From Malacoraja senta (Eukaryota), in assembly GCA_038087875.1 (NCBI GenBank), contig CM075991.1:11968001-12032000 (forward strand): a stretch of DNA of 64,000 nt, written 5' to 3'. The stretch's first letter is position 1. Each line of letters begins with the position of its first letter. Below are positions 1,583-44,491 of this stretch, in pieces. The notes under the pieces are model-generated. The model searched no databases, was not told where the DNA came from, and worked only from the letters and a program-made list of their open reading frames with translations. A program made the position numbers and the translations under genes.

Positions 1583-1747
<165 letters not shown>

Positions 1748-2043
1748 TGAGCAAAGTTAAGGAAGATCGCAGAACGTTAGCCCCATTTCAGGGCAAGGCA
1801 TACAATACTTCAGTCAGTAGTTGTTGCACAGGTTGCTTAAGTGAGTTATTGCTACCCCTGCACAGTGTTTCAGTTCCTTCACTCCGTGCATCCAATGGAA
1901 TTATTTCTACATGTTGTATCCCTGCCATATGCCTCTGAGACAACCGTTATAACGAGAGGCAGTGCCATGTCCTGGATCAAATGGAGAAGCGGGGCATGTC
2001 TATATCGGAGCACTTTGTATTTTTTATCTGGACTAACATTAAG

Positions 2044-2185
2044 TAATACTGAGGGACCCCTGCATTATTGGAGGTGCCATCTTTGAGATGATAATAGACA
2101 ATAGACAATGATGTACTAAATCAAGACTTATTTATTCCAGCTTTAGATGGATCTTTTACAATCCCATGGCATTATGTAAAGAAGT
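2044..2185 (+). mobile_element. Old DeuSINE (Deu-domain/SacSINE-AmnSINE-like) relic
   Basis: GGAGGTGCCATCTTTGAGATGA ... ATCCCATGGCATTATG resembles the Deu-domain consensus as I recall it. Confidence 0.55.
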
Positions 2186-2725
2186 TTTTTTTTAAATTTT
2201 TATAAATTTTGTGGTTTTAATTTATCAAAACCCTTGGCCAAGGCACTTACAGAATCTATGACATTTGTCTGTGCCAGGACACACACTTTCACTGCCTCCT
2301 CCGCCTCTCCATGGAGAGGTGACATCTCTAATAAACAGTGCTGCAATTGAACATTAACCCAGAATTTGCACTAAAGCCACGGAGAGAACCTGATATCTTC
2401 AACCTACCTTGGGCAAAACCCACTTTCCATCATTTTGCCTTTTAATTTGGCCTCTTTGGTCAAATATAATATATTTGAACACTTGTATCCTCCAGTCTCA
2501 AGTGGCATCCCAAAACATTATTGAAGACAAATTATGATTTGCCCTGTGAACATGCTGTATATGTATATCATGGTATGTGTTACACCATTGAAGTTAAAAG
2601 TTTCAGCTGTACAAGTCAGAACTTGGTCGTTGCAGAACTGACTTAAACTTAAATGATTCACACATTAACTTGTGCAATTAAAATGCAACTCTGAATGCTG
2701 CCAACTTTTATTTAATTTCTTGTAG

Positions 2726-2887
2726 GGTTCTGGTTGGTCTGGACTATAATCATCATGCTTAGCTGTTGCTGTGCTTATCGCCACCGGCGGGTGAAACTCC
2801 GACTGCAACAGGAGCAGCGACAGAGGGAGATCAGTTTGATGGCCTACCAGGGTGCCAGCACATACACAACACAACCACTGGATTTAA
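2726..2887 (+). CDS. WBP1: WBP1 coding exon (transmembrane helix, Cys cluster, basic/Gln stretch)
   Basis: Bounded by ttgtag| and |gtgag. Translates (W)FWLVWTIIIMLSCCCAYRHRRVKLRLQQEQRQREISLMAYQGASTYTTQPLDL; frame is continuous. Confidence 0.95.
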
Positions 2888-3711
2888 GTGAGCATACTAG
2901 TTTTATTAAACCATTGCAGAGACACATTATTATGCAGCAATGTAAGTCCTAAATCAATTTTTAAAATTATATTGATAAAATAGAATATGCTGGAGTGCAT
3001 AGGGTATCAATGTAAAAATGACCTGCTATGATTACGAAGGGCATTGGTCAGATCACACCTGGAGTAAAAGTACTTTTATATTCCTTTAAATTCATTGTGA
3101 AGGAGCAATAGATTTACATTGGAGGTCATTGTTAAAAAGATCAGTGGGTAGATTCCTTGGGTAAAGGAGTTGTCTTATGAGGAATGATTGGTGTTTGTAA
3201 GAATGAGGTGATATAACTGAAAGGAAGGAATCAAAGCAAACGACTACTGATGCTGGCAATCTGAAACAAAGGTTGAATGGGTTTGATAAAATATCTGATT
3301 GATTTTATCCCCTCGTGGGGAAGTTTACAACTGGGGGATATTAGCTCAAAATAACGGGTCATCCCTTAACATTAGTGACGCGGAGAATTTCTTCAGCGGC
3401 TTGTGAATTCTCTACCTCCAATCAGTCGGAGCTGAGAGAGACTGACTAGTTAATTATCTGTTGGCAGTGTCCAAAACAGCAGGTCTGTAACAAAAAATGT
3501 AGTCATGTTTTTGGTATCACTTTAAGACTAAAGAAAAAGGTGTGCCAAAACTTGTGGAAATTGCAGTTTGTTTCTGAATGGAGAGCTGAAAGAATTGGTT
3601 GCTTTTTTTTCTTGCTGCTGTGCTGCACCTGCTACTGGTAGGTACTGAAATGATCCTTTGTTCTCCAATACTTAACCTTGAGTACAATTATGGTCAGTAT
3701 TGCAATAGTTT

Positions 3712-4000
3712 AATTTAGACACACAGCATGGAAACATGCCCTGCGGCCCACCAAGTCTATGCCGACCAATGATCACCCATACGCTGGTGTCTTGTCCTAC
3801 ACACTAGGAACAATTTGCAGAAGCTAATTTACCTACAAACCTGCACGTCTTTGGAATGTAGGAGGAAGCCGAAGCACACGGAGAAAACTCACATGGTCAC
3901 GGGAGAACGCATAAACTCCGTACAGACAGCACCCATAGTTGGGTATTGAACCCGGATCTCTGGCGCAGTAAGGCAGCAGCTCTACTGCTGCGCCACTCCG
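3712..4000 (-). mobile_element. HE1-type (V-SINE) tRNA-derived SINE
   Basis: Reverse complement has the head GTGGCGCAGCAGTAGAGCTGCTGCCTTAC and core GGTGCTGTCTGTACGGAGTT...GGCTTCCTCCTACATTCCAAAGAC, shared with the many other copies in the window. Confidence 0.85.
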
Positions 4001-4118
4001 CTGCCTCCACTGTGTTACCCCAAATATATATTTAACACATCCCATACTTAATTAAAATGACAAGACATGTGGCAACAGTGGCATTTCACTGGTTAATTCT
4101 TTGTTTTCCCCCTTTTAG

Positions 4119-4714
4119 GGTTCTGGGCAAACTGTAAGCTTCCAGACTACGAAGAGGTGGCAGGCCACCCTCCAACACCCCCTCCCCCCTACACTGAATT
4201 ACAACAGCAAAACGCACAAACCTCTAGCCAAGAAAATGCAGTTGTGGAGAGCCAGCCTGCGCTGCCAGAGTCTGCAGCACCAGTGCAAGAGGATGAGCCA
4301 ACAATACAAGAAGTGGAGTCCAGCTCATCTGCTTGCCAACAGGAAGAGGAGCATGATGCTTCTGCCGACAGCTCTTCCAGTGAGCGAGAAAACGGTGATA
4401 CCATTCAAAATGAGGAATCTGCTGATTTTAAGACCTTGGAGATGGATTCCCATTTGTGTGATCAAGGGGAAATGAAGGAAGATAACTCCTCGCGGCAGAG
4501 ACGGATCACTGGAGACTCTGGCATCGAGGTGTGTGTCTGCCAAATGGACGAGGACCCTTACCATGAGGATGTGGGGCTGATGGATGGTGGTGCCCAAGGG
4601 TGTTGTGAACCCCAGTCATCCTGCAACTCGCAAGTCTTCAAACAGGCTCAAAACATGCAGCCAAAACAATGTTCTACAAAAGAACCAGAGGAAAAGAACA
4701 GTGACATAGCGTAA
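4119..4714 (+). CDS. WBP1: WBP1 last coding exon (PY motifs, acidic tail)
   Basis: ccttttag| acceptor. Translates (R)FWANCKLPDYEEVAGHPPTPPPPYTE...RRITGDSGIEVCVC...DIA*. The LPxY and PPxY motifs and the TGDSGIE motif are typical of WBP1/WBP1L. Confidence 0.93.
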
Positions 4715-12681: not shown

Positions 12682-12773
12682 AATAGGTAATGACCACGAG
12701 GGATTTGATGAAGGGATGAAGCATTTCAATAGGTAATGACCACGAGGGATTTGATGAAGGGATGAAGCATTTC
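12682..12773. repeat. Perfect 46-bp tandem duplication (2 copies)
   Basis: AATAGGTAATGACCACGAGGGATTTGATGAAGGGATGAAGCATTTC starts at 12682 and 12728. Confidence 0.95.
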
Positions 12774-12839
12774 AACATTAGAAGGCACCTCCCATTGTGA
12801 TCACAGCAGGAATTTGGGCCCAAGCTGCAGGTAGAGGTT

Positions 12840-13195: not shown

Positions 13196-13456
13196 AAAGT
13201 TGTTGAGCCAAAACATCATGCAACATTTGCTATGGATAGTTTTTATTGCTGCAAATTGAAATTAATTGCTCATTTGGATTATACCCATTTAAAAGATGTG
13301 CTTGGGAATTAAGCATTCCATGATTTGACTTTAGATGCAGCAACAGTTACATTTGCCTTCCTTGCAAGAGGACATGAGTGTAAGAATAGAAATGTCTTGT
13401 TCAAATTATAGGGCCCTGCTGAGACCATATTTGGAATACTGTGTACAGGTCTGGAT

Positions 13457-13703
13457 GTTGGTCTCCAGGATGGCAGGCTTGTTGTTCAGGAAGAGATTGA
13501 GCAACCTTGGTGTATACAGCCTGGAACTAGAGTACTGTCTAAGTCACCTTTATCCTGCACTCCAAGGAGAGTACACTTGTGATGGAGGATTGAAAAAGTC
13601 ATTGGTTGGTCTCCAGGATGGCAGGCTTGTTGTTCAGGAAGAGATTGAGCAACCTTGGTGTATACAGCCTGGAACTAGAGTACTGTCTAAGTCACCTTTA
13701 TCC
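13457..13703. repeat. 99-bp direct duplication (13457-13555 and 13605-13703) within an old LINE relic
   Basis: GTTGGTCTCCAGGATGGCAGG...GTCACCTTTATCC occurs twice, 148 bp apart. Upstream sequence encodes RPYLEYCVQVW (CR1 RT motif). Confidence 0.9.
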
Positions 13704-14390
13704 CATTGTGAATATTGGGATAAAGCTTGCAACAATGCTGAGAGCTAAATTCTACATTCTATCTCCCCCTTTGCTCTCTATTATACTTGAGTTTGTCCTG
13801 ATTTGTATTCATGTATAGTATTAACTTAGGATATCATACAAAACAAAATGTTTCACTGTACCTCAGTATATGTGACAAAACCAAACCTGAACCCATGCAT
13901 GAGAGAGAATGCACGAAACAGTTTGATGCACGAAAACTGTTGCAGGGTTTGACGTTTGCCATAACTGGGAAATGGAATGCAGACAAGAACAAAGGATAGA
14001 CTGTGATAGGGTGGAGCCCCACATATAATGGATAACACAGATTGCCGTTGACTAAGTGAGGATGGTGAGGACTTGATACTGGCAAATAATCCTACTGGAG
14101 GTGGTTTACACCGCAATCTTATATATATCTGGTGTGGAAGATAGCCTGACGAAACCATTATTACTGAAAGGGTTCAACATTTAGCACGATGTCATAAAAG
14201 CCCTGCATTGTCCCTGCCCCCTCTTTATGACACGCATAGTTCAAAATAATTTGGCCTCTAGTTTCAAGAGCCTTATCCTGTGCCCATGCTAACCTTCAAA
14301 CCCAACGGCAGATATTGATGCAGTGTATTGGCTACTCCACACAGCAGCTCCCACTCTGATCAACTTCTAACCTCACCTCACCACACCACA

Positions 14391-14813
14391 ATGCTGGGCT
14401 GGGAAGACTACGTGAGGAGTTTACTTGCCGATGGGTTATGCCAGGATGCTGCCGTCTTGGCCTGTTCCTGCCCCAGGCTGCTGGCTGCCAAAGAGGACGG
14501 CCTGTTCAAGCAAATGAGCTCAAAGGAAATCGGGAACATCATGAGCAACGAGCGGAAGGCCTTCCTGGTCAAGGGGCTCACCATCGGTGGCAAGAAGTGT
14601 TTCGTCATCCGTGACAACTTCCAGCTGGATGGGGATTACACCATGGACGTCAGGATGAAAAGGAGGGACGGTAACAACCCCTGCAACAGCATCGCCATCG
14701 CTCGGTCAACAAAAGTCGTCATTATGATCATGGGCAAGAGAGGTGTCCATGGAGGAACACTCAATAAAAAGGCCTTCCAGATGGCGACCTACATACGAAG
14801 ATCTGGCTGTTAG
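14391..14813 (+). CDS. Profilin-family protein, single coding exon, 140 aa
   Basis: ATG in acaATG context. Translates MLGWEDYVRSLLADGLCQDAAV...GLTIGGKKCFVIRD...DGDYTMDVRMK...MGKRGVHGGTLNKKAFQMATYIRRSGC*. Full profilin length with no stops or frameshifts. AATAAA at 15092-15097. Confidence 0.93.
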   Translation: MLGWEDYVRSLLADGLCQDAAVLACSCPRLLAAKEDGLFKQMSSKEIGNIMSNERKAFLVKGLTIGGKKCFVIRDNFQLDGDYTMDVRMKRRDGNNPCNSIAIARSTKVVIMIMGKRGVHGGTLNKKAFQMATYIRRSGC

Positions 14814-16235
14814 AAGAGGCATCGGTTACTGCTGTTACAACTGGATAATTCCATCAACGCAACTGGATTTCCAGGCGTTATCTCAAAATGCTTTGACGTC
14901 TCCCCATAAGTAGCCCCAACTATCCATTGTGTGACCAGACATATTGCTGCCTGGGCTTATAGTGGCACTCATATTTTTGATATATACTTATGGAAATTAT
15001 TTGCGTATTTAAAAATCTATGTATGTTGTGCTCTTATTGCAGAAGTGAGTTTGCTGTGTGAATGGAACAGGTATGTTAATCACATTTCTCCAATAAAGAT
15101 CAAAATCTTAAATGTTTCACTGTTTTTAAGACGTTTCAGCCATGATCATATTGAATGGCGGTGCTGGCTCGAAGGGCCGAATGGCCTACTCCTGCACCTA
15201 TTTTCTATGTTTCTATGTTTGATGCTCAAAAGATAAGCGCACAATTGTATGAGCAACATCTAGGATTCAGAGTAAACGTACAAGGAGCCAATGGCAAGAT
15301 TTGGCACAAAGTATCCCGTTCCCTACCAAGGGCAAACTAAGGTAATGCAGCTGCCTCATTGCTCCAGAGATCTGGGTTCAATCCTGACCTGTCTGGATGG
15401 AGTTTGCATGGAAACTGCAGCATTTAGCTCTTCAGTTATAAATTCCCTGGTGTTTGGAGGGTCGGTTTTAAGCTGCATGTAGGTACGGTGAACAGCCATG
15501 GGCTAGTCCAGTCTCTACAGGTAGAAGTGGTAAAAACTAGACGCAGAGTGCTACAAATAAAATGTCAAGCACCACTTCCAACTCATTCAGATTCACTGCG
15601 GGTTTGTTAATATTACAATTTCTACTTACATATTTTTAAAAAAGATTGGTTAAGTGGTCTCTGGAATAAAAAGACATCCAATTCCTGAGTTAAGTACTCA
15701 AATATATTCCACTTCTGGGAAACAAGTTACACATTTTGTTAAAAATATTTAAAGCATATTTAAATAATTCATACAATTCCAAATTACTCAGCAGTCCAGG
15801 CAACACCCCACATAGGGGCAATAATCAATGTAAATGCTGACTGCTGCATAGAGTCACGGACAATGCACCCACATCTTCTGCCCCAAACACTCCTCGCCAT
15901 TGCTGTCGGAGAAAGAAGACAAGGTCTTGGACTGATGGTACGATCCAGTTATAGGATTCATTCATCTGTCCCTGGCAATGTGAACCGAGAAAGTGAAACA
16001 GTGCAAATGTAAAGACAGAGCTCGAACTCTGAGATCACGGCAGTACAGAGAAACGCCATTCTCCAGGTTGCTTTAGCCCGGCTAGGATCCTGCACCACCT
16101 CACTTCCATAGGCATTACTGACCATTTAACCACAGTGTGACTGTCACCCCACATCACTCACATGGTCGTGAATTGAACCGTGAGCAAGAGTGAGCTACAA
16201 TTAATTCTCATCTTGCACATTACAATCCAGAAGTA

Positions 16236-16425
16236 AGTAGACAAAATTGCTGGAGAAACTCAGCGGGTGCAGCAGCATCTATGGAGCGAAGGAAGGAGGC
16301 AATGTTTCAGCCCGAAACGTTGTCCATTTCCTTCGCTCCATAGATGCTGCCGCCCCCGCTGAGTTTCTCCAGCAAATTTTGTCTACCTTCGATTCTCCAG
16401 CATCTGCAGTTCCTTCTTGAACACT
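16236..16425. mobile_element. Fold-back Penelope-derived element with 11-bp TSD, just downstream of the POLR3D stop
   Basis: Inverted arms 16237-16386; TSD ATCCAGAAGTA at 16225-16235 and 16426-16436. Confidence 0.8.
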
Positions 16426-16568
16426 ATCCAGAAGTATCTTTCACACCCGTCCCTCCTGAGAACTGTCCTTTCAAGGCTTCGCCGAGCCCTCCAACAATCT
16501 CCAGTCGCAGACAAGACGCGGAACGCAAGCTGACAACGTGTTTTCTTGTGCAAGATCTTCATTTCCTG

Positions 16569-16688
16569 CTACTGTCTTTGCTCAAGGAGCGCCTCAAAGT
16601 CAGGGGAACAGACCAGCTTGTGCTTGATGTGCCCCAACACTGTCATCTCTCCTGTCCTGTTCTCTCCAATTCCAATGGAAACCAGCTC
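16569..16688 (-). CDS. POLR3D: RNA polymerase III subunit RPC4, last coding exon
   Basis: tttcag| acceptor; ELVSIGIGENRTGEMTVLGHIKHKLVCSPDFEALLEQRQ*. Confidence 0.96.
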   Translation of the reverse strand, partial: ELVSIGIGENRTGEMTVLGHIKHKLVCSPDFEALLEQRQ

Positions 16689-17964
16689 CTGAAACAACAG
16701 AGACATCAACTGAGTAGAACAGTCAGCATGACGTTCCGTAACGTCAGAGTTATCTTCAGAGGGGGAAAGCAAATGAGATCTTGCATTCTTTAACACCGAA
16801 TGTGAACTCAGGAGAACTTGTCAGTTTTACAATATGACCACAAGCAGCTCCCACAAACAGAAGAATCGAATAGACAGGAGGCCCATTGTTTCCGCTGACA
16901 TTTGTTAAGGTATAAACAGGTTCCACAGTGAATTTTCTTTCTAGTCCCCAAATACTGCCCTTGGCTCCCTGACAAGTTCAGGTGAGGCAAGTGTTCAACG
17001 TCTCATGTGAAGGCTGGCATCTCCCATCAGTGCAGTGTCTCCTCGGAGGTTTTGGCCCAGACGCGAACTCTGGAATGGTACTGCGGCACCTGACCTTCTG
17101 GCTCGGGGCGGCCCGCTACCCACTGGACGACGGCTCAGTGTTTTGAACCAGGCCTCCAGTGGCCAGCGCAAGCTGCCAATCCTCCCAAATGAACCCGTAG
17201 TTATTTTTCAGTCAAAGCTCAGCTCACATATTGAAGCCCCTGACTCTGCGAATTGTAATAGCTTAGTTTAGAGTTAGTGCGAAAACAGGCCCTTTGAGTC
17301 TGCTCCAACTAGCGATCCCCGCACGCTAACACTATCCTGCATGCTAGGGACAATTTACAGTCTTTACCAAAGCCAATTGACCTACAAACCTGTACGTCTT
17401 TAGAGTGGGAGGAACCCAGGGTCTCGACCAGAAACGTCACCTATTCCTTCGCTCCATAGATGCTGCCTCACCCGCTGATTTTCTCCAGCATTTTTATCTA
17501 CCTTTGATGTAGTCGTCTGTCTAAAGAAGGGTCCCAATCTGAAATGTTCTCCCAAGATGCTGCCTGACCCGCTGAGCTACTCCAATACTCAGTGTCTTCT
17601 TTTGTAAACCACAAATAAATCACTCTCATGCCCTGTGCATGCTCTCTACACATCTCATCATATGTGTAAATACTCATGGAATTTCCCCTGATGAGGAGAC
17701 GGGCATTTTTTGGCAAAGATTAATCTGTTCCCTTTCTAACAAACCGCTTGCAGCAACTATTGTACATGGATATGACAGGTTTGGAGGGACTAGTGTAGCT
17801 GGGGCATGTTGGCGGTGTGGGCAAGTTGGGCCGAAGGGCCGGTTTCCACACTGTATCACTCTATCACTCTCTAACAATCAGAAAACCTGAGGTTTCCCGA
17901 ATCGCCAAAACGATCAAAACTGGTGGAACTGCTGGCCGTTCCGAAAACGCGATGTGGTACGTAC

Positions 17965-18117
17965 CTGGAGAAATGAACAGGTTGTTCCCATGGTAACATC
18001 CAGGGTGACCTGCCCTAGAACGAGCTGCACTCGCCCTGACTTCCTGATCAGCAGCTTCCCAATCTGACCCTCCGTTAGATCCATCAGCGAGCAGGTATTT
18101 TCAGCTTGTTTCTGTTC
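17965..18117 (-). CDS. POLR3D: RPC4 coding exon 7
   Basis: gtag| ... |gtacgt; EQKQAENTCSLMDLTEGQIGKLLIRKSGRVQLVLGQVTLDVTMGTTCSFLQ (RPC4 C-terminal domain). Confidence 0.96.
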
Positions 18118-18172
18118 CTACACAACACACACACACACACACACACACGATGAGAAAGGAACTCGACCATCA

Positions 18173-18465
18173 TGGGCAGCACAGTGGTGCAGTGAGAGTT
18201 GCTGTCTCACAGCGCTAGAAACCCAGGTTGAATCCTGATCTCAGGAGCCGTCTGTACGGAGTTTGTACGTTCTCCCTGTGACCATGTGGGTTTTCTCCAG
18301 GTGCTCTGGTTTCCTCCCACATTTTAAAGACATGCAGGTTTGTGGGTTAATTGGCCTCTGTAAATTGTCCCTCGAGTGTAGGGTAGTGCTAGTGTACGGG
18401 GTGATCGCTGAATAACGCAGACTCGGAGGTCCGAAGTGCCTATTCCACGCTGTATCTCTAAAGTC
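18173..18465 (+). mobile_element. HE1-type SINE (intronic)
   Basis: GGGCAGCACAGTGGTGCAG head, V-SINE core, GCTGTATCTCTAAA tail. Confidence 0.85.
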
Positions 18466-18850
18466 CAGACATAATCATCTGCACAGACCAAGAACAGCTT
18501 CCACTGTCACCAGCCCACGTAGAGTCCATTTACACTTCTAGTCCAGGGATATTGATGGCACCCCAGAGATGGTAACATTCAGTGGATTACAAAGTAATGC
18601 AATATTACTTTATATTATCCAAAACCCAAGATTCATGATGTGCTTTGTTTCTCAATAGAAACCACTTTTAAAAATAGAAACCTCAATTAGATCCCAGTAA
18701 TATAGAGATTCATTCCTAAGATATGATTTTTCTTTTTAGAAATGACACCCCAACACTATAATCCAGTTGCAACTCATTCCTGGATAACCCAACACTGCAC
18801 TTAATACATCGCAGAATTACAGTTGGTATATTTCTAAATCTCTGAGTATT

Positions 18851-19258
18851 ATATAGTCTTCTGCGTGGATTGTCACCTTGTCGTGGTGGAGAAGCTTGTG
18901 TGGACCTGAGATCCTGAGGGCGATGCCGTCTGGAGCTATGCTCCTGGTAGGGCCACCCATGGCGGTAAGGTCAAGGGGGAGGTCTCTGACAAAGAGCAAT
19001 TCAACCAAGACCTCAATGGTGGAACAGGCGGAGGACGATGGCTGACCTTAGTGGAGCGTTACAACGGCTGGGAAGGTGGGTGAAGGCTGCAGCAGAAAAG
19101 GGTCCCCAGTCGTCTTGTATTCCATGCCACTGGATCCTGACCCAGATCTGTCAAGGACAGTGTAGCACTAGTCTCCCCACGTTAAACAAAGTCACGCACA
19201 GGCATCCTCCAACCCTGGAGACACCCATGGTCAGCCATGACCGATGGGGACCTAAGAA
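18851..19258 (+). mobile_element. Short non-autonomous RTE-derived (bipartite-like) retroelement
   Basis: Carries CACCTTGTCGTGGTGGAGAAGCTTG and GAGCTATGCTCCTGGTAGGGCCACCC, resembling conserved RTE/BovB 5' motifs. TSD GAGTATT at 18844-18850 and 19259-19265. No RT ORF. Confidence 0.6.
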
Positions 19259-19349
19259 GAGTATTTCAACCCAAGTTTGGAAAACCCTGCTGAGTGGAGA
19301 TAATCAGGAGGACCCTTGCAGTAGAACTAGTAATGGTACAAGACAAAAT

Positions 19350-19541
19350 GTGTAGGAAGGAACTGCAGATGCTGGTTTAAACTGAAAATAGACACAAATG
19401 CTGGAATGGCTCAGCAGGGCAGGCAGCATCTCTGGAGAGAAGGAATGGGTGACGTTTCGGGTCGACCCGAAACGTCACCCATGCCTTCTCTCCAGAGATG
19501 CTGCCCGTCACCGAGTCACTCCAGCATTTTGTGTCTATCTT
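19350..19541. mobile_element. Fold-back Penelope-derived element
   Basis: Inverted arms centred on GACGTTTCGGGTCGACCCGAAACGTC; flanking AATGGTACAA is duplicated. Confidence 0.8.
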
Positions 19542-19566
19542 TAGTAATGAATGGTACAATACCGAC

Positions 19567-19838
19567 CTGAGACTTCTCCTGTTTCAGCAGCACAGTCTGC
19601 CCGTCCTCGTTCTGCACCTCAGCTTTCGTTGGCTTCTCTTCACAGGTGGGGGACTGGCCCGGCAACGTGTCGGGGAGCTGGAGGAACAGCAGCTCGTCGT
19701 CTTTGTGCATGCTGAGCTCCTGGAGCAGTTCAGCTACCGAAACGTTCTTTGGGGCAGCCGGAGCCTTCCTCACCACGCTGGGCTTCCCCGATGCCGGAGA
19801 GCCCTTCGCCGCGTCTTCGCCGCCGGGTTCATCCTTCA
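19567..19838 (-). CDS. POLR3D: RPC4 coding exon 6
   Basis: ttttcag| ... |gtcggt; (V)KDEPGG...ELLFLQLPDTLPGQ...EKSQ; phase is consistent with its neighbours. Confidence 0.93.
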
Positions 19839-20019
19839 CTGAAAAAACAAATCCGAATAATGCCGATATAACAGGTACATCACACCTTCATGTGTGCCCT
19901 ACCTTCATTCCTTAATGCAGCATAGAGAGATGCAACGTTAACTTCCTTGTAGCTTCCATTCTCCTTTCCACAATGGAGCCAGCTACCTATCGCAGATTCT
20001 GGACTACAGATAGTTCTGC

Positions 20020-20290
20020 TATAGACAATAGACAATAGGTGCAGGAGTAGGCCATTTGGCCCTTCGAGCCAGCACCGCCATTCAATGTGATCATGGCTGA
20101 TCATCCCCAATCAGTACCCCGTTCCTGCCTTCTCCCCATATCCCCTGACTCCGCTATTTTTAAGAGCCGTATCTAGCTCTCTCTTGAAAGTATCCAGAGA
20201 ACCGGCCTCCACCGCCCTCTGAGGCAGAGAATTCCACAGACTCACAACTCTCTGTGTGAAAAAGTGTTTCCTCATCTCTTCTAAATGGCT
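20020..20290 (-). mobile_element. Young CR1/HER1 LINE 3' end with (ATAGACA)n tail as read on +
   Basis: EMRKHFFTQRVVSLWNSLPQRAVEAGSLDTFKRELD. Near-identical copies lie at ~24510-24715, 31720-31970, 34460-34692 and 41010-41268. Confidence 0.9.
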
Positions 20291-20635
20291 AGCTTGCCAC
20301 AATCACCTGTTCTTAGAGATAAAATGATTATCTAAATACATGCTTCTACCATGAGAGCATGAGTTTCATCTTCAGGGAGAGAAAAGATCTTCACCAAGGA
20401 ATGCGAGAGAGAGAGGGAGGAAGAACTTTGACCGTGGTGTATGTCAGTGCCAGCCAGTGCAGACAGAAGACTCGAATACACAGAGTGGGGTAAGAGTTAT
20501 TTTGAATTGTTTCCTTATTGATAGTTGATAGTTTTTCTGTCTTTTACTTGTGTTTGCTGTAATAGTCATTGTGCTCTTCACCAATGATCCGAATCCTTGA
20601 ATCCTGCATATATTTCATTACAACGATTAATGAAG

Positions 20636-21667
20636 TAACAATGTTACAACATTTTGAGATTTAAAAAATCAAGTCTGTAATTTATCCCATCAGATAAAGC
20701 ATAAAAAGACGTTTAATTTGACACCTAATTCACTTTCATATCTTCAGTATTAAAAAGTTATGGCCATTTTCATACTCGGAAATTAGCATCTTGTTCCCTA
20801 TTGCTTTTCCATTGACTTAACACAAAAGCTGTGATCGAGGACAGTCAAAAGCCCATAACTTTCTTAAAAATTAAGAGAACTGAAAGACATTTTCAGTTAT
20901 TATAGATTGAAGCATTCTGAAACAAATATGAAACAATCTTACTTAGATGACATGAAATTAAAGCATATAATTAGTTAGTTACCTAATTGTAGCTAATTAC
21001 AAAATTCAATTACTAGATCTAAACATCTATCAATTTCTTAAGAATAGATTAACATTTTTAAATAGCCTAAGTGTCCAAATAACATTCACACAAGAATTCA
21101 CAATATAACATAATTTTTAAATCTCATTGTCATGGATTTATAGGCCAAATGGAAGGAATTTAATGTTTAATACCTGTAAATTAATGGGCATTTAAATCAT
21201 CTTGCGAGTGGGTTTTTCTGGAATGCGATCATTTGGAACGTTGATTTGCGGTGAATTTAACCCCGTATCAGCATGAATAATACTGCCGTTAGTTTGGGGA
21301 AAATAATCACCGTTTTGCATTTTAAAATGTGAATTAAAGGCCTCTTAAGAAGCACTTTTATACATAAAATAAACTGCTTTCGTTTACCTGTCCCGTGCGT
21401 GAAATCCGTCCCCGTTGTCGGCTTTCGAAGCTGATTTTAAAATAACTCCAGCGCTGAACTTGTCGGGCGAATAAAAATAAAAAATACACAAAACGCCCGT
21501 CGGAACGATTCTTCAGCAAAAGTTTGCACTCCAACGAAATATAATACAGGACAAGGTAGGAGAAACCCGCGTTTTAACTCTGCACCCCCCTCAAAGGCGC
21601 CAAAATCGTGCACACGGCCAGTGGCAGAATTGCAGCGCCACTGAAGGTAAGTATTGTAACATACCTA
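20636..21667. mobile_element. ~1-kb non-autonomous DNA transposon
   Basis: Imperfect 14-bp TIRs (TAACAATGTTACAA / TTGTAACATACCTA). Direct repeat AATGAAG at 20629-20635 and 21668-21674. AT-rich left part, CpG-rich right part, no ORF. Confidence 0.7.
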
Positions 21668-21824
21668 AATGAAGATAGATACAAAATGCTGGAGTAACAA
21701 TAAATGGTCAAGCAGCATCTCTGGATGGAAGGAGTCCGCTGAGTTACTCCAACATTTTGTGTCTATCTTCGGTGTAAACCAGCATCTGCAGTTTCTTCCT
21801 ACACATAATGAATGAATGAACTAC

Positions 21825-21978
21825 CTTTCACAGTAGAGACATCCATCTCCATCTTTTCCTCCCTGGCCGTCAGCTCCTCATCCTCCGTGTCCTCCTTGAA
21901 CAGCCAGCCTGACTGGGCCAGAGGAAGCTGCACGGGCATGTTGCGGGCATCGTTTTTCAGACCAGGGTCATCGATAAA
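21825..21978 (-). CDS. POLR3D: RPC4 coding exon 5
   Basis: gtgcag| FIDDPGLKNDARNMPVQLPLAQSGWLFKEDTEDEELTAREEKMEMDVSTVK |gtag. Confidence 0.95.
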
Positions 21979-22573
21979 CTGCACACAAGCAAGAATCAAA
22001 TGCATTTGGCGCAACAATACAACTTCAACAGACAGAAAAAGAGATGAACAAATGAGCTCAAGTAGGAAAGGAATTTAGGATGTACAACTCCGGTGGTCTG
22101 CAACCCTCCTCATTCATTCGTCTGGGCTGATCCCAATGTCGTAACGTACACAATTGTGATCAGTTTGCATCAAGCTTCTGTATCCAAATCCTGCCCCAAT
22201 GCACACCAATCATCCTCAAGGGCCTGTCCCACTTACGCAATTTTTTGGGGACTGCCGGCACCCGTCAGTCGCAGCGGGTCGCCGAAAAATGTCAAAATGT
22301 TGAAAAAGAAAAAGGTACGATTCTTTGGGCGACTACTCACAACCATACAGGCATCACAGGTTAATTGGCTTCTGTAAATTGTGTAGGGAGCTGATGGGAA
22401 AGTGAGATAACATGGAACTTGTGTGAATGGGTGATCGATGGTGGGCACAGACTGAGCGGGCCGAAGGGCCTGCTTCCACGCAGTATCTCTGAAAGGCAAA
22501 TGTTATACTTTTCCTCTTTGAACTAATCTCCCACCATGTCCGCATCCCACTGCCTCCATCAAACAATGCTTAC

Positions 22574-22698
22574 ATCGTCCCGGTCCAGCATGCGGAGAAT
22601 CTGCTTGGTTTCTTCCTCCGACTCTCGCTTTTCCTTCTTGATGTTAATAATTGGGGATGTTCCAAACTCCTTCATGTCCACAGAGGAATCCCAACCAG
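22574..22698 (-). CDS. POLR3D: RPC4 coding exon 4
   Basis: tttcag| (A)GWDSSVDMKEFGTSPIINIKKEKRESEEETKQILRMLDRDD |gtaag. Confidence 0.95.
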
Positions 22699-24883
22699 CT
22701 GAAAGTCAGATACAGAAAGAGAACAGTCGGAAAACTGCATCGCTGATAACCAGTGAACGAAATGTTAGCATTGTTGAATACAAATGGTGCTTGAGGAGAG
22801 ATTGATAGATCATAGAACAGAAATAGTCTGAAGACGGGCCACGACTCAAACGTCACCTATCCATTTTCTCCAGAGATGTTGCCCGACCCAGTTACTCCAG
22901 TATTGAAGGGTCTCAACCCAAAACCTCACCTATTCCTTCACTCCATAGATGGTGCCTGAGTTTCTCCAGCTTTTTTGTCAACCTTCGATTTTTCCAGCAT
23001 CTGCACTTCTTTCTTTAACAACTACCTCAGTTATGTCAGGTCAGGGCACCTCCAAAGCTCCATGGAGTCAAACCTATCATCATCCTCTGGGTGAAAGCAT
23101 TTCAAAGGTGAAGCCAAATTTAGACGGCATGCCAATATTCTGCACTCTGTATCTTTCTCTCCACTTGACATTTTGTGCTTGGCTTGTTTGTATTCATGTA
23201 TAGTATTATCTGATTTGATTGCAGAGCATGCAAACAAAATCCTCAGTATACACAGAAATAATAAACCCAAACCTAAATGTTATGAGCCTTTTTGAAGCAA
23301 GCTTAAGAAACAATCCTGACCCATCGGAAGGATCTAAAAATAAAGTTAAAATCACAGTCTTGCATCCAGCCAGCAAATGTGTCATTAAATACTGGCAATG
23401 TTCAGATTGGATCACCCCCCCCCCCCCCCCCCCCCTCCTTCCCTGGTGCACACAGGCACGGAAATACAGACTACAGAATGAGATGTTGATACAGCGTCTG
23501 CAAGAGATGCTCCATCTGATGCTATTCTAGTTGGATTCATGTACAGTAGCTATTAGAAGTGACATTCGGCAGGACATGCCACGGTTGATCCCTGGGGTCT
23601 GAACTGCACTGCTGTTTACTGTCAACTATGGTGTGGAAACAAAGAATTGATGGCACTGCCACTCGATGTAGAGTCTCGTGAGAGCAAATGTAGAAATTGT
23701 TCCCACTGACTGGAAGATCAATAATCCAAAGGCCACAGATTTAAGACTAACCATAAAACAACCAGAAGTGACTTTGGGCAAGAACATTTTGGGTTGGTTG
23801 CGATTTGGAAAACATTGCGACAACAGAGCAAAAACATTTAATAATACTTTATAAAATGGGAATTGGACCAATATCCGAGGGAGAAAGAATTGTAAACAAA
23901 TGAGAAAATGAGTAAGGGAGTTATTGGCATTAACTAGTTTGTTCATTTGAGATGGCCACTGGAGATAAGGTGTGCCGAGCAATCAATGATTTGACCTAAT
24001 GGTGACGCAGGTAGAAAGAGTGGTGAAGAAGGCTTACCTTCATCAGTTAGGTTGTTGAGGACAGGAGTTGGGATATCATTACAGGTGTACAAGATGTTGG
24101 CGAGGGCATATGGTGTACAGTTTTGGTCACTCAGCTGCAGGAAGGATGTCATTAAACTGGAAAGGGTGGGAAGATTTGAAGACGTTACTGGGACAGGAGT
24201 GATTTGAGTCATGAAAAGAGGCTGGATAGGCTGGGACTCTTTCCCCTGCAGCAGAAGAGGCAGAGGAATGAAATTATTGAGATCTATTAAATCATGAAGG
24301 GCACAGATACAGTGAAAATCCATAGTCTCTTCCCCATGGTAGGGGAGTCTAAAATTAGAGGCCATAAATTTAACATTGAGGCGATAGATTTAATAGGAAC
24401 ATGAGGTACAACTTTTTCCCATACAGAGGGCGGTGGGTACATGGAACGTGCAGCCAGAGGTCGTGGTAAAGGCTGACTTTTAAAAGACGTTTGGAGAGGT
24501 ACAGGAAAGGTTAGACAATAGACAATAGGTGCAGGAGTAGGCCATTTGGCCCTTCGAGCCAGCACCGCCATTCAATGTGATCATGGCTGATCATCCCCAA
24601 TCAGTACCCCGTTCCTGCCTTCTCCCCATATCCCATGACTCCGCTATCTTTAAGAGCCCTATCTAGCTCTCTCTTGAAAGCATCCAGAGAACCTGCCTCC
24701 ACTGCCCTCTGAGGTTTGGAGGCAAATGGGACTAGCTCATTTAGGCAACTTGGTCGAGTTGGGCTGAAGGGCCTGTTTGGATACCGTATAGCTCTTCTGT
24801 GCTGCTAGATTTCACAAACATGAATAGAAAAGCTATCGACTGCAGGATTTGAAGAGCACACACACACACTTCCCATTTCTCAC

Positions 24884-25038
24884 CTCTCTTCTTCATCATT
24901 TCAGCGGGCCCCTGCTCGAAGATGGAATGGGACTGGATGGTCTCAGGTCTGCCTCGTCCTCGCCCGCGACCATCTCTCTGCCGATCTCTTTCTCGCTCTT
25001 TCTTCTCTTTCCTCTGTGAAGCATCCTCCTCCTTTGGT
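24884..25038 (-). CDS. POLR3D: RPC4 coding exon 3
   Basis: ctgcag| PKEEDASQRKEKKERERDRQRDGRGRGRGRPETIQSHSIFEQGPAEMMKKR |gtgag. Confidence 0.96.
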
Positions 25039-25699
25039 CTGCAGGGAGTGAAATCACACTTTACGTGATGCAATTGAATGCTCCATCAGTTACTAACTGA
25101 GTCAAAGTATATCTTTCCCTTCAAGAAGCAATGGGACATCTTTAATATTTCATTATCCATGGACATGATGCCCAACACTAGCTTGTTGCTGTCTGCTGCT
25201 ACTGCTATGGACATTATTATGCTGCTTTTTTACTTTTAACTATTTTTTTTATAGGCTCACTATTATTTAGTTTATTGTAGAAGGTTTTTATATGTTAGAA
25301 TTTATTGATATCTTTACTGTACTTTATTGATGTCTTACTGCACTATTACGCTGCTCGGACCCGAGTACAAATTTCGTTCATGATTCATGTGGAAGCATGT
25401 TTTTATCGAATGACAATAAATAAATGAACAGAACTGAATGAACTGAACTTAAATGTGTGGAGACTTGTAAAGGAATATCCTTCCATTTGGAGCAAAGAGG
25501 CAGCAGATGGGGCTTAATTTGGGGGAATGTTAGTCGAAAGAAATGCAAAATTTATTTTAAAAGATGGAAGACGAGTATATTACGGAATCTGGGCACACAG
25601 GTTAACAATTAGAATAGTTAACAGAAGCGTTTATTGTAGATGGTTAAAAAGCATGAGGATGGAAGTCACTGCAGTTGCACTGGGCTTTAATCAGGCCAC

Positions 25700-26400
25700 A
25701 TCCCAAAACCTTTTCTTCAGCTGTGATTTCCTCTCCACCATTAGTGCCAGGGCTCTTAAGTGGTTCTGGTCAATTTCCTGCACTTTTCAATCTATCGTCG
25801 AACAGAAAAACGGCTGTGTTCCCCCGAGTGCGCTCCACCCACCCCAGTAAGTTCCACATTCAAAGGATCATCCTCTCTCCTTCATCTCTCCGATCCCGTC
25901 AATGTCGTGCCACCAACAGACCCACCTCCCTCTCCCGCCTCATTATTCTTTACGGAGCAACATACACCATCGAGCTTCATTCTTCTAGTGCAACATGCCC
26001 TGTGATCTTTGTCCTGCCATTCAGGAACTAAACACTCCTTTCAGGTGAAGCAGTGATTTACCTATGTTTCCACCAATGTTGTATACTGCATTCAGTGCTC
26101 ACAATGTGGCCCGTTCTACATTTGGGAACCCAAACATAGTTTGTTCAGCCACACATCTCCATTCAATTCTCAAGAGTAACACTGACCTTCTAGGTTATTT
26201 CCATTTTAATTCTCCATCGTATTTCCACTCTGAGCTCTATGTCTTTGACCTCCTATAATGCTTCAACAAAACGCATTGTGTGCACAAAAAACATCTCATC
26301 CGTTTGAAATTTGGCACAGGATTCAGACGAGAATTAAAAAATTTCAGATAATCAATTAGCCCCGTAGCCTGCATTTCCAATTAGTTTTCTCTCTTTTCTC
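25700..26400 (+). mobile_element. Decayed Penelope-like element, GIY-YIG endonuclease region
   Basis: ~26030-26135 translates KHSFQVKQ*FTYVSTNVVYCIQCSQCGPFYIWEPK, a decayed NVVY..C..C...YIGET motif, with an internal stop. Confidence 0.7.
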
Positions 26401-26761
26401 CTACATCTGGTTTAATTTATGTCCAAGTGCCAACTTCCCCAGACAAACCTTCCCTCCAGTCCGTCAGCCTGCGCCACTACAATGTGCATCATTCACGATT
26501 ACCTGGTCCCTATAGATACAATAGCAAGGCTTAGGGGATATTTAGAGAGGGAGATGAACAGGCAGGGAATTGAGGGAATATACATCACTTGTGGGCAGAT
26601 GTGCTGTTTCAATTAGCATCATATTCAGCATAGACAGCACGGGCCAAAGGCCGATTCCTGTGCTGTACTGCTCGTTGTGCAATAATCTGTTTTAATTATT
26701 TAAAAATGGAGTGAGACAATACCAATCTGCCACAAATTCTTCGTTGCAAAGCAATACTTAC

Positions 26762-26805
26762 TCTTCCTTAACTTTCCTGCTGATGATGTTTGGAGTGAAT
26801 GTTTT
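26762..26805 (-). CDS. POLR3D: RPC4 coding exon 2 (44 nt)
   Basis: ttacag| KTFTPNIISRKVKE(E) |gtaagt; conserved FTPNI motif. Confidence 0.95.
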
Positions 26806-27179
26806 CTGTAAGAGAGGACATCAGATATCATTCTTAGGTCACATCAACACACGATGATAAAATAGACTTCACTGCCTCTGTTTGACTTGATGCCAATGAC
26901 TTAATGCGATCAGAAGGCAATGTTGAAGGCTGACAGAGCCACTCCAACCTACTACACCATTGCGCCCCATTCGTTGGTTATTCAGGATGGCAATGGTGAA
27001 GTGTGAGACGTTGATGAGGGGCTGAGAGTTCACCAGGCTGTTGTTCGACTGGAATGGGCGAATAGGTCACCGCACATCCTGTGTCTTGGGAACTGTTCAA
27101 GCTTCATTAGCTTCACTACTGTTGCCATTCCTTTGCCCTATCTAATATCTAGGTCGATACTAGACAGGTCATGTGGCTT

Positions 27180-27353
27180 GGCAGACACAAAATGCAGGAA
27201 AAACTCAGCGGGTGAGGCAGCATCTATGGAGAGAAGGAATTGCCGACGTTTCGTTGCCAATTCCCTCTCTCCATAGATGCTGCCTCACCCGCTGAGTTTC
27301 CCCAGCATTTTGTGTCTACCTTCGATTTTACCAGCTCTGCAGTTCTTTCTTAA
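27180..27353. mobile_element. Fold-back Penelope-derived element with 16-bp TSD
   Basis: TSD ACAGGTCATGTGGCTT at 27164-27179 and 27354-27369; inverted arms. Confidence 0.8.
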
Positions 27354-27379
27354 ACAGGTCATGTGGCTTAGTTCATTTA

Positions 27380-27855
27380 CATTCCACAATGGTTTTGCAC
27401 AACCGAGCAACTCAAAATCAATTATCAGTACTTCACACCCAGGCAGTTAAAAGGAAAGCCAACCTCATTACACAGGATCCCACCCACCCACTACACAAGT
27501 CCTTCCAACTTCTGCCATCAGGCCGCCGATATAAAGTCCCCCTATCTAAGAAAAACATCCACAAAAACTCATTCATACCCATTGCCATAAACAGCTTAAA
27601 TAAAAAATGAACAATGGACAAATTAACCCTGACGCACTGTCACTTTACACGTATCCACAACTTTCATCTTGTCTATTTTTACAGTTTTTAATCCTTATAC
27701 TTGCTTTTAAGATCTATGCACACGGTGTGTGCTCGCAGAAATCTGTGTTGTATGACTGCTTATCAGTACATTGTCCTGTTTGTATGTTGAGCCACGCCAA
27801 AGAAGATTTTCTGTTACTACAGACAATAAAGTTTTCTGAATCTGAATCTGAATCT
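27380..27855 (+). mobile_element. Rex1/Babar-type LINE 3' end with (TCTGAA)n tail
   Basis: DPTHPLHKSFQLLPSGRRYK...KNSFIPIAINSLN*, then AATAAA and (TCTGAA)n. Confidence 0.8.
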
Positions 27856-29524
27856 GCTGCGTCACTTCAGAGAACGACCAAGGCTCAACTTACATTGGCA
27901 TGAGGCCAGGCAAAACTCAGCAGATTACATTCAAAGGCAGATGGCTGAACAGGTGCCCAACACAAATATTTGCTTTATTGACTTCATTAGCTGAATTTAA
28001 AGTTTCCAACCGGCATGGTAAGAGAGAGAATGGAAAAGCAGCAAGAAGTGTGCACACCAGTTGGTTACCAGCGTCAGAACTGTAGCAATTCCCCCGACCA
28101 ACCAGAAACCAAAATAGAAAAACACCAATGCTTTTTATGTAGACACAAAGGTGCCTTTAATAAACATACGTGCCACATAGCAGGAAAACACAGTGAAGAC
28201 ACTTAACTTTTTAAGAGGTTCCAGCACACTGTAGCAGTGCACACAGCGCACACAAAAATAATACTGGAACAAATCATTATCACAATAAAAAACAAGTGGG
28301 GGACAAACAGATGTGGTGTGGCTAGCTGAGCACACGTTGTATATAGCACATTCAACGCCCTTTTCATTGTAAGGCTTGCTGTTATCTTCAAGGTGACAGA
28401 TACAGAGGTCAGTCGCGTGGGTCTGCCCACATTACAATCCCAATCACTTCCACCACAGTCATATGATCATGCGATGTGGCATGATATAAATAATTTCTGT
28501 GTGTTTAAATCTGAAGTACTTTGATTGTTGTCACTGAATCGTGGCAGCAAATTTGCGTCCAACAATCTCCCACAAATAGCAGTAAAATCAGTTAACAGTT
28601 TTAGTGTTGCAATTTTACATCAAAATATTAGCCAGAACCAGTCTTGAGTCTGAAGAAGAGTCTCAACCCGAAACGTCACCCATTCCTTTCCCCCCCAGAG
28701 ATGCTGCCTAACCTGTTGAGTTACTCCAGCATTTTGTGTCTATCTTCAGTCTTTTAAAGAGACAGGGTTTGAATATTTAATGTCCACAGGAGGATACAGA
28801 GTGTTGGTTTGACATCTCCACCTATAGACAGCAACGTGAACAGCCTAACGACCCCCCTGCATTGCACGAACGTCAGCACAGATTAAATGCTGAAGTGTCT
28901 GGAATGCCATGGAGTTACATGACTGACATAAATACTAATCACAACAACCTCACTCCCATCAAAACTTTGTTGCATGTTTTATAATCTTAGAAAGCACCAA
29001 TGAGTTCCAATAGAAACTGACAGCAGGAACGGGAAATAAAAAATAACATTGCTGCAAATGCTAAACAAATAACAGCTGTTGGCAAAGAACACATTTGACC
29101 CAAAACTTTACTTATTCTGGATCATTTTTCATCCTGTTTTCACTCCATGTCTCCAGAAGAGACAATCTCTGCTTTTAGCTCTGCCAATTGCACAGACTCT
29201 TTAACACAGAGTAGGGATTTAAGAACCAGAGGACATGTTTAAGGTGAGAGGGGAAAGATTTAATAGGAACTTCAGGGGCTACTTTTTCGCACAGAGGGTG
29301 GTGGGAGGAAACCGAAGTTCTCGGAGAAAACCCACGCAGGTCACGGGGAGAACGCGCAAACTCCGTAAAGCAAGCACCCGGGTCTCTTGCACTGTAAGGC
29401 AGTAGCTTTACTGCTACGCCACCAATACCACCTTGGAGAAAATGTGTAGGTGCTGTTTCGGGTCAGGATCCTGGTTCAGACAATCTGACAGAAACAACTG
29501 GACTGGCTTTCTAAGGCTGCTGAC

Positions 29525-29689
29525 CTTTTTCATTCCTCCCAATGTTAGATCCCGTGATCGGATGGAGGGCAAGCGGCCCGGCGTGACAGCGGCTGAAGTC
29601 CGGCGTCCTGGCAGACCCCTGCCCACGGTGACGGGAGGTCTGACCCCGCTGGAGTTGCCGGGTTCACCGCTGGCACCTCTCTCAGCCAT
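29525..29689 (-). CDS. POLR3D: RPC4 first coding exon (exon starts ~29703)
   Basis: MAERGASGEPGNSSGVRPPVTVGRGLPGRRTSAAVTPGRLPSIRSRDLTLGGMKK |gtcag; the RLPSIRSRDLTLGG motif is present. All 8 coding exons splice in frame to 395 aa. Confidence 0.95.

Positions 29690-42631: not shown

Positions 42632-44491
<1,860 letters not shown>

What the first reader, a model, noticed from the sequence alone, without database searches (positions are those of the whole stretch)
14391..14813. Intact intronless profilin between WBP1 and POLR3D: candidate ancient PFN3 paralogue
Seen: a complete 140-aa single-exon profilin with good start context and AATAAA. It is strongly diverged from PFN1/PFN2 yet uninterrupted, with no visible poly(A) scar or TSD. 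Known: PFN1 and PFN2 have introns, while mammalian PFN3 is intronless, testis-specific and on 5q35 near PRR7 (a WBP1-family gene). WBP1 (2p13) and POLR3D (8p21) belong to the 2p/8p arm of the 4/5/8-2/10 paralogon, and I know of no human profilin beside either. Inference: this may be a genome-duplication-era sister of PFN3 kept in cartilaginous fish. The alternative is an old functional PFN2-like retrogene.
Basis: partly seen in the sequence, partly recalled or inferred. Interest (0 to 1): 0.7.

Follow-up and report, generated by a model that had tools for sequence, protein, structure and literature searches.

The report
Skate member of ancient profilin-5 lineage
This is a real, intact actin-binding-protein (profilin) gene shared by sharks, rays and chimaeras, and it most likely belongs with the little-studied mouse testis gene Pfn5 (dead in humans), which would make that fifth profilin as old as jawed vertebrates.

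Summary
The 140-aa intronless profilin ORF between a WBP1-family gene and POLR3D is real. Orthologues (77-98% identical, NCBI 'profilin-2-like') occur in 12 chondrichthyan species including chimaera; POLR3D lies on a record of the same length in 4 of 4 comparable species. It is no recent retrocopy and not the PFN3 orthologue: 11 of the 12 species hold a separate PFN3-like gene (38-45% identical in seven pairs measured). Three trees join it to amphibian, turtle (two trees also herring-type) and rodent proteins that match mouse Pfn5/human PFN5P (96/96, 96/95), though AU tests do not reject PFN3 or PFN2 as sister. So it is probably the cartilaginous-fish member of the PFN5 lineage, not a shark-only PFN3 sister. 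It lies on the skate GGA22-type microchromosome (8p/2p arm), but skate PFN3-like lies outside that paralogon, so a genome-duplication origin is unproven. The actin face is largely kept; two poly-proline aromatics are lost. Expression is not shown: RNA contigs over it are continuous with POLR3D mRNA, whose long 3' UTR probably covers it antisense. No earlier scan note matched.

The parts
14391..14813 (+). Profilin coding sequence, 140 aa, no intron; chondrichthyan member of the PFN5 lineage
   Evidence: model pLDDT 88.6, TM 0.93 to mouse PFN2a
15092..15097 (+). AATAAA, likely poly(A) signal of the profilin mRNA (inferred)
14138..15132 (+). Conserved block (upstream region, CDS, 3' UTR): 2.6% differences against 6.0% in five flanking pieces in run X2; 3.9% (14122-14925) against 6.0% in four pieces in run X13
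   Evidence: Fisher p 9e-6 and 0.02
13950..14200 (+). Possible promoter: TGACG half-sites at 13950 and 14147, TATA-like words at 14120 and 14193; motif matches only, no control, no TSS data
1583..4714 (+). Last three coding exons of a WBP1-family gene (about 1583-1686, 2726-2887, 4119-4714), upstream neighbour; WBP1 rather than WBP1L is inferred
   Evidence: a 'Wbp1.2' is on Leri_15C in the skate table
16569..29689 (-). POLR3D (RPC4), 8 coding exons, convergent downstream neighbour
13242..16568 (-). Inferred long 3' UTR of POLR3D, running antisense over the whole profilin gene; first canonical poly(A) signal on - at 13242
   Evidence: (X8 record 20, X9 record 26)
15136..15217 (.). High-copy repeat insert just behind the poly(A) signal, absent from organism B contigs
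   Evidence: depth, loose ends, pieces

Best explanation
A functional, single-coding-exon profilin gene that has sat on the POLR3D/GGA22-type chromosome since before chimaeras and elasmobranchs split, and that is the cartilaginous-fish orthologue (or co-orthologue) of the lineage named Pfn5 in mouse and PFN5P in human. Origin (inferred): an old retroposition from an intron-bearing PFN1/PFN2-type gene before the bony/cartilaginous split; the mammalian copy later came to lie on X. How it works (inferred from residues and family knowledge, not assayed): a G-actin- and phosphoinositide-binding profilin with a weakened or altered poly-proline groove (Trp31 to Leu, Phe139 to Cys), so an actin-monomer buffer only loosely coupled to formins/VASP, most likely in male germ cells, like mouse Pfn5 and PFN3. 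Shown: intact ORF, conservation, fold, neighbours. Likely (about 0.7): PFN5 lineage. Inferred (about 0.6): testis/spermatid role.
For: Orthologues in 12 named chondrichthyan species, 77-98%. As conserved as POLR3D: 77-81% against 74.5-84% for the same four species. POLR3D record length equals that of the profilin orthologue in S. canicula, Hemiscyllium, Stegostoma and Callorhinchus. Trees: window clade + bony PFN5-like rows SH-aLRT 92 (65 rows), 96/96 (45 rows, LG+G4), 96/95 (25 rows, mixture model, clupeiform and long rows dropped); the order chondrichthyans, clupeiforms, tetrapods fits the species tree (clupeiform + tetrapod node only 76/19). Rodent rows P0067/P0188 (153 aa) match the mouse/dog/human PFN5 alignment in Mudge 2019 (by eye, 41 of the first 60 residues P0188 against dog). 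14 of 15 bony PFN5-like rows score best against the window clade, against 1 of 31 control rows. Leu at Trp31 in 12 of 12 chondrichthyan and 9 of 9 bony rows, Trp in 9 of 9 PFN1/2/3 rows. One PFN5-type lineage per species. Actin residues named by Behnen 2009: Arg74, Arg88, Lys90, His119, Lys125 kept in 12 of 12 chondrichthyan rows; Trp3, Tyr6, Tyr133 kept. Mouse Pfn5 is intronless and testis-specific.
Against: AU tests do not reject window clade + PFN3 (p 0.18, 0.23), + PFN2 (0.15, 0.11) or + PFN1 (0.10, 0.07); only 142 columns. Near-exclusive shared columns: 2 with tetrapod PFN5, 3 with PFN3, 1 each with PFN2 and PFN1. The window clade itself scores best against PFN2 in 6 of 6 rows (PFN2 evolves slowly). 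10 of the 15 bony rows were found with a profile that held P0001 and P0020, which favours the result. Position differs from human PFN5P (chrX:64.4 Mb); no bony-vertebrate locus could be read. No gar, coelacanth, bird or lamprey member was identified by name, and no named shark PFN1/PFN2 or mammalian PFN3 was in the trees. Expression and tissue not shown.
Confidence: 0.62

Rival explanations
1. One reading: a genome-duplication sister of PFN3 kept only in cartilaginous fish; the bony 'PFN5-like' genes are unrelated fast-evolving profilins drawn to it in the tree.
For: AU does not reject window clade + PFN3 (p 0.18, 0.23); 3 near-exclusive shared columns; locus is on CLG I/Q 1-beta, and GGA13 (human 5q35 homologue, recalled) is 2-beta of the same group.
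Against: All three ML trees prefer PFN5; Trp31Leu shared with PFN5 rows only, and PFN3 marks (137 aa, His125) absent; little-skate PFN3-like is on LER37, CLG H.
Confidence: 0.13
2. An independent, old PFN2-derived retrogene fixed in the chondrichthyan stem and since kept by selection.
For: Highest raw similarity is to PFN2 (46%); NCBI calls it 'profilin-2-like'; Tyr133 as in PFN2a; AU p 0.11-0.15.
Against: PFN2 rows form their own clade (100/99, 96/98) without it; 14 of 15 bony PFN5-like rows are nearer to it than to PFN2.
Confidence: 0.12
3. It is in the PFN5 lineage but is a paralogue (ohnologue) of the X-linked mammalian gene: two ancient copies with reciprocal loss.
For: Skate copy on LER35 = GGA22, human copy on X (homology of Xq to GGA4p/LER12 recalled).
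Against: No species showed two PFN5-type lineages; rodents nest with turtles inside tetrapods (91/83; tetrapods 100/99); LER35 and LER12 are not duplicates of one linkage group.
Confidence: 0.1
4. A recent retrocopy, a pseudogene, or simply the translocated PFN3 orthologue.
For: Intronless coding sequence; no transcript of its own shown.
Against: Intact and 77% identical in chimaera; depleted of substitutions; separate PFN3-like genes in 11 of the 12 species, 37.5-45% identical in the seven pairs measured.
Confidence: 0.02

Closest known systems
Mouse Pfn5 (Gm45800) / human unitary pseudogene PFN5P (Mudge et al. 2019, PMC6886504)
   Same: Intronless coding region; same clade in three trees via rodent rows that match the printed PFN5 alignment; Leu at Trp31, a hydrophobic residue at Ser71, no C-terminal aromatic at 139.
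   Different: Only 33-35% identical to the rodent rows; 140 against 153 aa; keeps His119 and Lys125, lost in 9 of 9 bony rows; GGA22-type autosome against X; tissue unknown here. The paper aligned only human, mouse and dog and proposed retro-insertion without a date.
PFN3 (testis profilin; Behnen 2009, PMC2694148)
   Same: Single-exon testis-type profilin with a partly lost poly-proline site and Leu59; tail-to-tail with a neighbour whose transcript it may overlap (mouse/human PFN3-SLC34A1, PMC2673434, PMC4996343).
   Different: 43% identical to elasmobranch PFN3-like proteins of the same species; loses Trp31 and Phe139 and keeps Tyr133, whereas mammalian PFN3 keeps Trp31 and lacks both C-terminal aromatics; Phe not His at 128; different chromosome in skate (LER35 against LER37).
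PFN2a (PDB 2v8c, 1d1j)
   Same: Best sequence and fold match: 46%, TM 0.93, rmsd 1.3 A; actin/PIP2 basic residues kept.
   Different: PFN2 is multi-exon; Tyr29, Trp31, Phe139, Phe59, Ser71, Tyr128 changed; separate clade.
RefSeq 'profilin-2-like' models of sharks and rays (e.g. XP_032869583.1, XP_055518397.1, XP_042200413.1)
   Same: These are the orthologues; the gene is already annotated automatically.
   Different: The name implies PFN2; the trees here place them with PFN5.

Membership tests
Profilin family | Pfam PF00235 above cut-off over the full domain | tested here: met
   75.6 bits against cut-off 25
Profilin family | Profilin fold | tested here: met
   AF2 pLDDT 88.6; Foldseek TM 0.93 to PFN2a
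Profilin family | Actin-binding residues (Phe59, Arg74, Arg88, Lys90, His119, Lys125, Tyr128) | tested here: met
   5 of 7 identical, Phe59Leu and Tyr128Phe conservative; binding itself not assayed
Profilin family | Complete poly-L-proline site (Trp3, Tyr6, Asn9, Trp31, Tyr133, Phe139) | tested here: not met
   3 of 6 kept; Asn9Ser, Trp31Leu, Phe139Cys
PFN5 lineage | One clade with mammalian Pfn5/PFN5P | tested here: inconclusive
   Found in 3 of 3 trees (SH 92; 96/96; 96/95) but rivals not rejected by AU, p 0.07-0.23; Pfn5 identity of the rodent rows judged by eye
PFN5 lineage | Intronless coding sequence | tested here: met
   Pfn5 intronless
PFN5 lineage | Same genomic position as mammalian PFN5 (chrX:64.4 Mb in human) | tested here: not met
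   Skate orthologue on LER35 = GGA22 beside POLR3D; X-to-GGA4p homology is recalled
PFN5 lineage | Testis-specific expression | not testable with these tools
   Runs are coded, tissue not given; contigs are unstranded and joined to POLR3D
PFN3 orthologue | 137 aa, Trp31 kept, His125, clade with PFN3-like genes | tested here: not met
   Another gene of the same species has these marks; PFN3-like rows form their own clade 98/99, 100/99
2R ohnologue of PFN3 | Sister lineage to PFN3 and paralogous chromosome segments | tested here: inconclusive
   PFN3+PFN5 split 87/80, SH 88, 53/58; window gene on I/Q 1-beta, skate 137-aa PFN3-like on H 2-beta
Recent processed retrocopy of PFN1/PFN2 | High identity to parent, poly(A) tail, species-restricted | tested here: not met
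   46% or less to PFN1/2 rows, no A-run, present from skate to chimaera
Gene under purifying selection | dN/dS well below 1 | not tested
   No orthologue DNA held; proxies only

The most novel reading that the evidence does not exclude
Jawed vertebrates began with a small family of intronless germ-line profilins (PFN3, a second 139-aa PFN3-like lineage seen in sharks and coelacanth, and PFN5) born of one retroposition before the genome duplications; this skate gene is the 1-beta ohnologue still in its first place beside WBP1, keeps the ancestral actin face (His119, Lys125) that bony-vertebrate PFN5 lost, and lies antisense inside the POLR3D 3' UTR as PFN3 faces SLC34A1.
Probability: 0.25. Interest if true: 0.65.

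Novelty: new member of a known kind. Interest (0 to 1): 0.45.

Why it matters
Reviews read here count four vertebrate profilin genes (PMC8387879, PMC8632698, PMC12452346), one paper holds Pfn3 to be mammal-only (PMC4996343), and Pfn5 is known from a human-mouse-dog alignment. If the placement holds, PFN5 is a jawed-vertebrate-wide lineage, so the ape loss (PFN5P) ended a gene as old as jawed vertebrates, many 'profilin-1/2-like' database names are wrong, and the slow-evolving shark protein gives a ready comparison for when PFN5 lost its actin and poly-proline residues. It is a gene-family correction, not a new mechanism.

Tried and rejected
No whole genome held, so same-species PFN1/2/3 could not be read. 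My recalled idea that Pfn5 is Gm6970 beside WBP1L at 10q24 was wrong: the two Gm6970 hits are histone papers and PFN5P is on X; PFN1P11 had no hit. The look-up of sequencing runs: no RNA holder listed on record; no evidence either way. The RNA-like contigs over the ORF are not counted as expression of the profilin. A bony-vertebrate position test by record length failed: Mauremys, Pleurodeles, Discoglossus, clupeiforms and the two rodents were not among the 120 of 167 POLR3D rows shown, and Pelodiscus profilin has no length. The Mauremys protein is on a 300-Mb record and chicken chromosomes 22 and 26 are fused into testudinoid chromosomes 2 and 4 (which to which not stated in the passage): a weak hint only. 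The side-necked turtle preprint gave nothing. ESM Atlas: generic profilin clusters only. Pfam on 135 open frames from 30.5-64 kb (of 314 that passed my filter): none above its cut-off. The first careful mixture tree did not finish; the quick tree was used. Counting shared columns did not separate PFN5 from PFN3. No complex was predicted (no actin sequence held; a textbook pair). dN/dS not computed. Earlier scan notes: none by sequence, one unrelated DIO2 note by words.

Full report
Observation. The start has A at -3 and C at +4; AATAAA lies at 15092; there is no A-run of 6 or more from 13500 to 15637. The neighbours are a WBP-1 family gene on + and POLR3D on - (8 coding exons). An AlphaFold2 model (32-row alignment) has pLDDT 88.6 and TM 0.93, rmsd 1.3 A to mouse PFN2a. 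No whole genome is held. Nearest proteins are from skates (98%).

Orthologues. Searches give 139-154-aa 'profilin-2-like' proteins in 12 named species: Amblyraja, Leucoraja (98%), Hypanus, Mobula (84-86%), two Chiloscyllium, Hemiscyllium, Stegostoma, Carcharodon, two Scyliorhinus (79-83%) and Callorhinchus (77%). Against four of them the profilin is 77-81% identical, POLR3D 74.5-84%. In laid contigs of two related organisms the block round the gene differs at 26 of 995 and 31 of 804 letters, against 216 of 3610 and 168 of 2809 in the flanking pieces that the cut table showed (p 9e-6, 0.02). These are proxies; dN/dS was not computed. Position: five species appear with lengths in both the profilin and the POLR3D lists; in four (S. 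canicula 24,906,204; Hemiscyllium 22,250,077; Stegostoma 20,570,595; Callorhinchus 4,626,286) the record length is identical, and the fifth (S. torazame) gives a 192-kb and a 144-Mb record, apparently of two assemblies, and cannot be compared (120 of 167 POLR3D rows shown). This shows the same chromosome or scaffold, not adjacency; adjacency to POLR3D is seen in organism B contigs.

Not PFN3, not a recent retrocopy. Eleven of the 12 species also hold a 'profilin-3-like' protein, 37.5-45% identical to their copy of this gene in the seven pairs measured. The 137-aa type carries the PFN3 marks that Behnen 2009 names (Leu59, His125). The window protein is 46% identical to PFN2a.

What it groups with. 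A phmmer scan of 1.84 billion representatives (236 hits, best 150 listed) and a tree of 65 near-full-length rows (of 80; 15 fragments, pseudogene-like and near-duplicate rows dropped) joined the chondrichthyan clade to five rows (SH-aLRT 92): Pleurodeles, Discoglossus, the rodent Perognathus and two unnamed. A profile search added turtles, Thomomys and clupeiform fishes. Mudge et al. 2019 (PMC6886504; passages, supplement hits, and part 8 of supplement file 9; files 1 and 8 not searched) describe mouse Pfn5 as an intronless, testis-specific profilin and human PFN5P (chrX:64,405,660-64,406,074) as its unitary pseudogene, stopped in apes, 'likely formed by retro-insertion'. Their human-mouse-dog alignment matches the 153-aa rodent rows (by eye, 41 of the first 60 residues). 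Careful trees give window clade + PFN5-like rows 96/96 (45 rows, LG+G4) and 96/95 (25 rows, mixture model, clupeiform and most long rows left out). Fourteen of 15 bony PFN5-like rows score best against the window clade, 1 of 31 control rows does (10 of the 15 were found with a profile holding the query). Trp31 is Leu in 12 of 12 chondrichthyan and 9 of 9 bony rows and Trp in 9 of 9 others. Against this: AU tests reject none of the rivals (PFN3 p 0.18/0.23, PFN2 0.15/0.11, PFN1 0.10/0.07), near-exclusive columns are 2 for PFN5 and 3 for PFN3, and the clade's own best score is to PFN2. Labels PFN1 and PFN2 for unnamed rows rest on their match to the PDB alignments; no named shark PFN1/2, mammalian PFN3, gar or lamprey row was in the trees.

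The duplication argument. The Leucoraja orthologue's record is 15,576,883 bases, the end of Leri_35C in Marletaz et al. 2023 (PMC10115646; passages, supplement file 2 part 1 and search hits, file cut when stored); LER35 = GGA22 = CLG I/Q 1-beta, with LER15, LER1/3 and LER11 (= GGA13) as the other copies. Polr3d's gene-number neighbours there include Dpysl2, Adam28, Loxl2, Gfra2, Dguok (their human 8p21/2p13 places are recalled). But the skate 137-aa PFN3-like record is 13,149,398 bases = Leri_37C, CLG H 2-beta, and human PFN5P is on X. Both intronless genes differ in chromosome between skate and human, so human PFN3-PRR7 linkage cannot carry the case. PFN3 plus PFN5 against PFN1/2 has 87/80, SH 88 and 53/58; PFN5 lineage + PFN2 is not rejected (p 0.26). 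A single pre-duplication retroposition is possible, not shown.

Mechanism. With the residue lists of Behnen 2009 (PMC2694148; part 1 of 7 and passages): Arg74, Arg88, Lys90, His119, Lys125 are kept in 12 of 12 chondrichthyan rows; Phe59 is Leu in 8, Gln in 2, Phe in 2; Tyr128 is Phe; Ser71 is Phe or Tyr. In the poly-proline groove Trp3, Tyr6, Tyr133 are kept, Trp31 and Phe139 lost in 12 of 12. His119 and Lys125 are lost in 9 of 9 bony rows. Inference: it binds G-actin and phosphoinositides and binds proline-rich formin/VASP tracts weakly, as PFN3 does by another route; a spermatid role is inferred from Pfn5 and PFN3 only.

Expression. No run on record as RNA was listed. X8 and X9, marked 'RNA? 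(probably DNA)', behave as RNA: their contigs stop at the WBP1 and POLR3D last-exon acceptors (4114, 16687) where DNA run X2 goes on into the introns, and X9 record 26 has 1211 further letters, about the spliced POLR3D length (the joined piece itself was not displayed). The contig over the profilin is that same POLR3D contig and runs on past the profilin to at least 13558 in X8. The minus strand has no AATAAA/ATTAAA between the POLR3D stop and 13242 (2.9 expected, none in 5% of shuffles; weaker variants exist). So the gene probably lies antisense within a 3.3-kb POLR3D 3' UTR; both runs are of one study, contigs are unstranded, and the cover cannot be credited to the profilin. Mammalian PFN3 makes an antisense pair with SLC34A1 (PMC2673434, PMC4996343; passages).

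Novelty. The gene is annotated in RefSeq under a PFN2-like name. Nine paper searches found vertebrate Pfn5 only in PMC6886504 and PMC7779007 (one passage) and no paper on chondrichthyan profilins. Reviews count four genes (PMC8387879, PMC12452346, PMC8632698; passages). Polet 2007 (FEBS Lett) and Pandey and Chaudhary 2017 were seen only as citations and may bear on this; subscription papers are mostly outside the library. Verdict: a new member of a known kind, real and old, most likely the cartilaginous-fish PFN5; interest 0.45.

Noticed in passing
proteins P0007-P0012, P0023-P0029 against P0058, P0179-P0185: Two 'profilin-3-like' lineages in cartilaginous fish: 137 aa (skates, rays, catsharks, Mustelus; little skate LER37) and 139 aa (carpet and mackerel sharks, on 129-229 Mb records, grouping with coelacanth 100/96). 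No species was listed with both, which may be sampling or reciprocal loss. PMC4996343 calls Pfn3 mammal-only.
   Followed up: partly
window 13242-16568 (-): POLR3D appears to have a 3.3-kb 3' UTR that covers the profilin gene antisense.
   Followed up: partly
proteins P0040, P0068, P0187, P0189, P0194, P0193, P0195, P0196: PFN5-like proteins in salamander, frog, turtles and clupeiform fishes carry names such as 'profilin-1-like' or 'hypothetical'; the clupeiform ones are fast-evolving with odd composition.
   Followed up: partly
proteins P0020-P0022 (Callorhinchus, one 4.6-Mb scaffold): A full model and two N-terminally short isoform models under a separate accession block: a local duplicate or an assembly artefact.
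   Followed up: no
window 4119-7900 (+): In X8/X9 the WBP1 last-exon contig runs to about 7900, past AATAAA words near 6200-6480, suggesting a long 3' UTR.
   Followed up: no
window 15136-15217 and 16236-16438: High-copy repeat inserts present here and absent from organism B contigs.
   Followed up: no
window 12682-12775 and about 13457-13705: Exact 46-bp tandem duplication and a roughly 100-bp direct repeat seen in the sequence upstream of the gene.
   Followed up: no
window 42500-44600; 45790-45989; 55019-55714: About 2 kb of AC repeat, a 200-N gap, and a weak endonuclease-like frame (Exo_endo_phos E 0.006, below cut-off), probably a LINE remnant.
   Followed up: no
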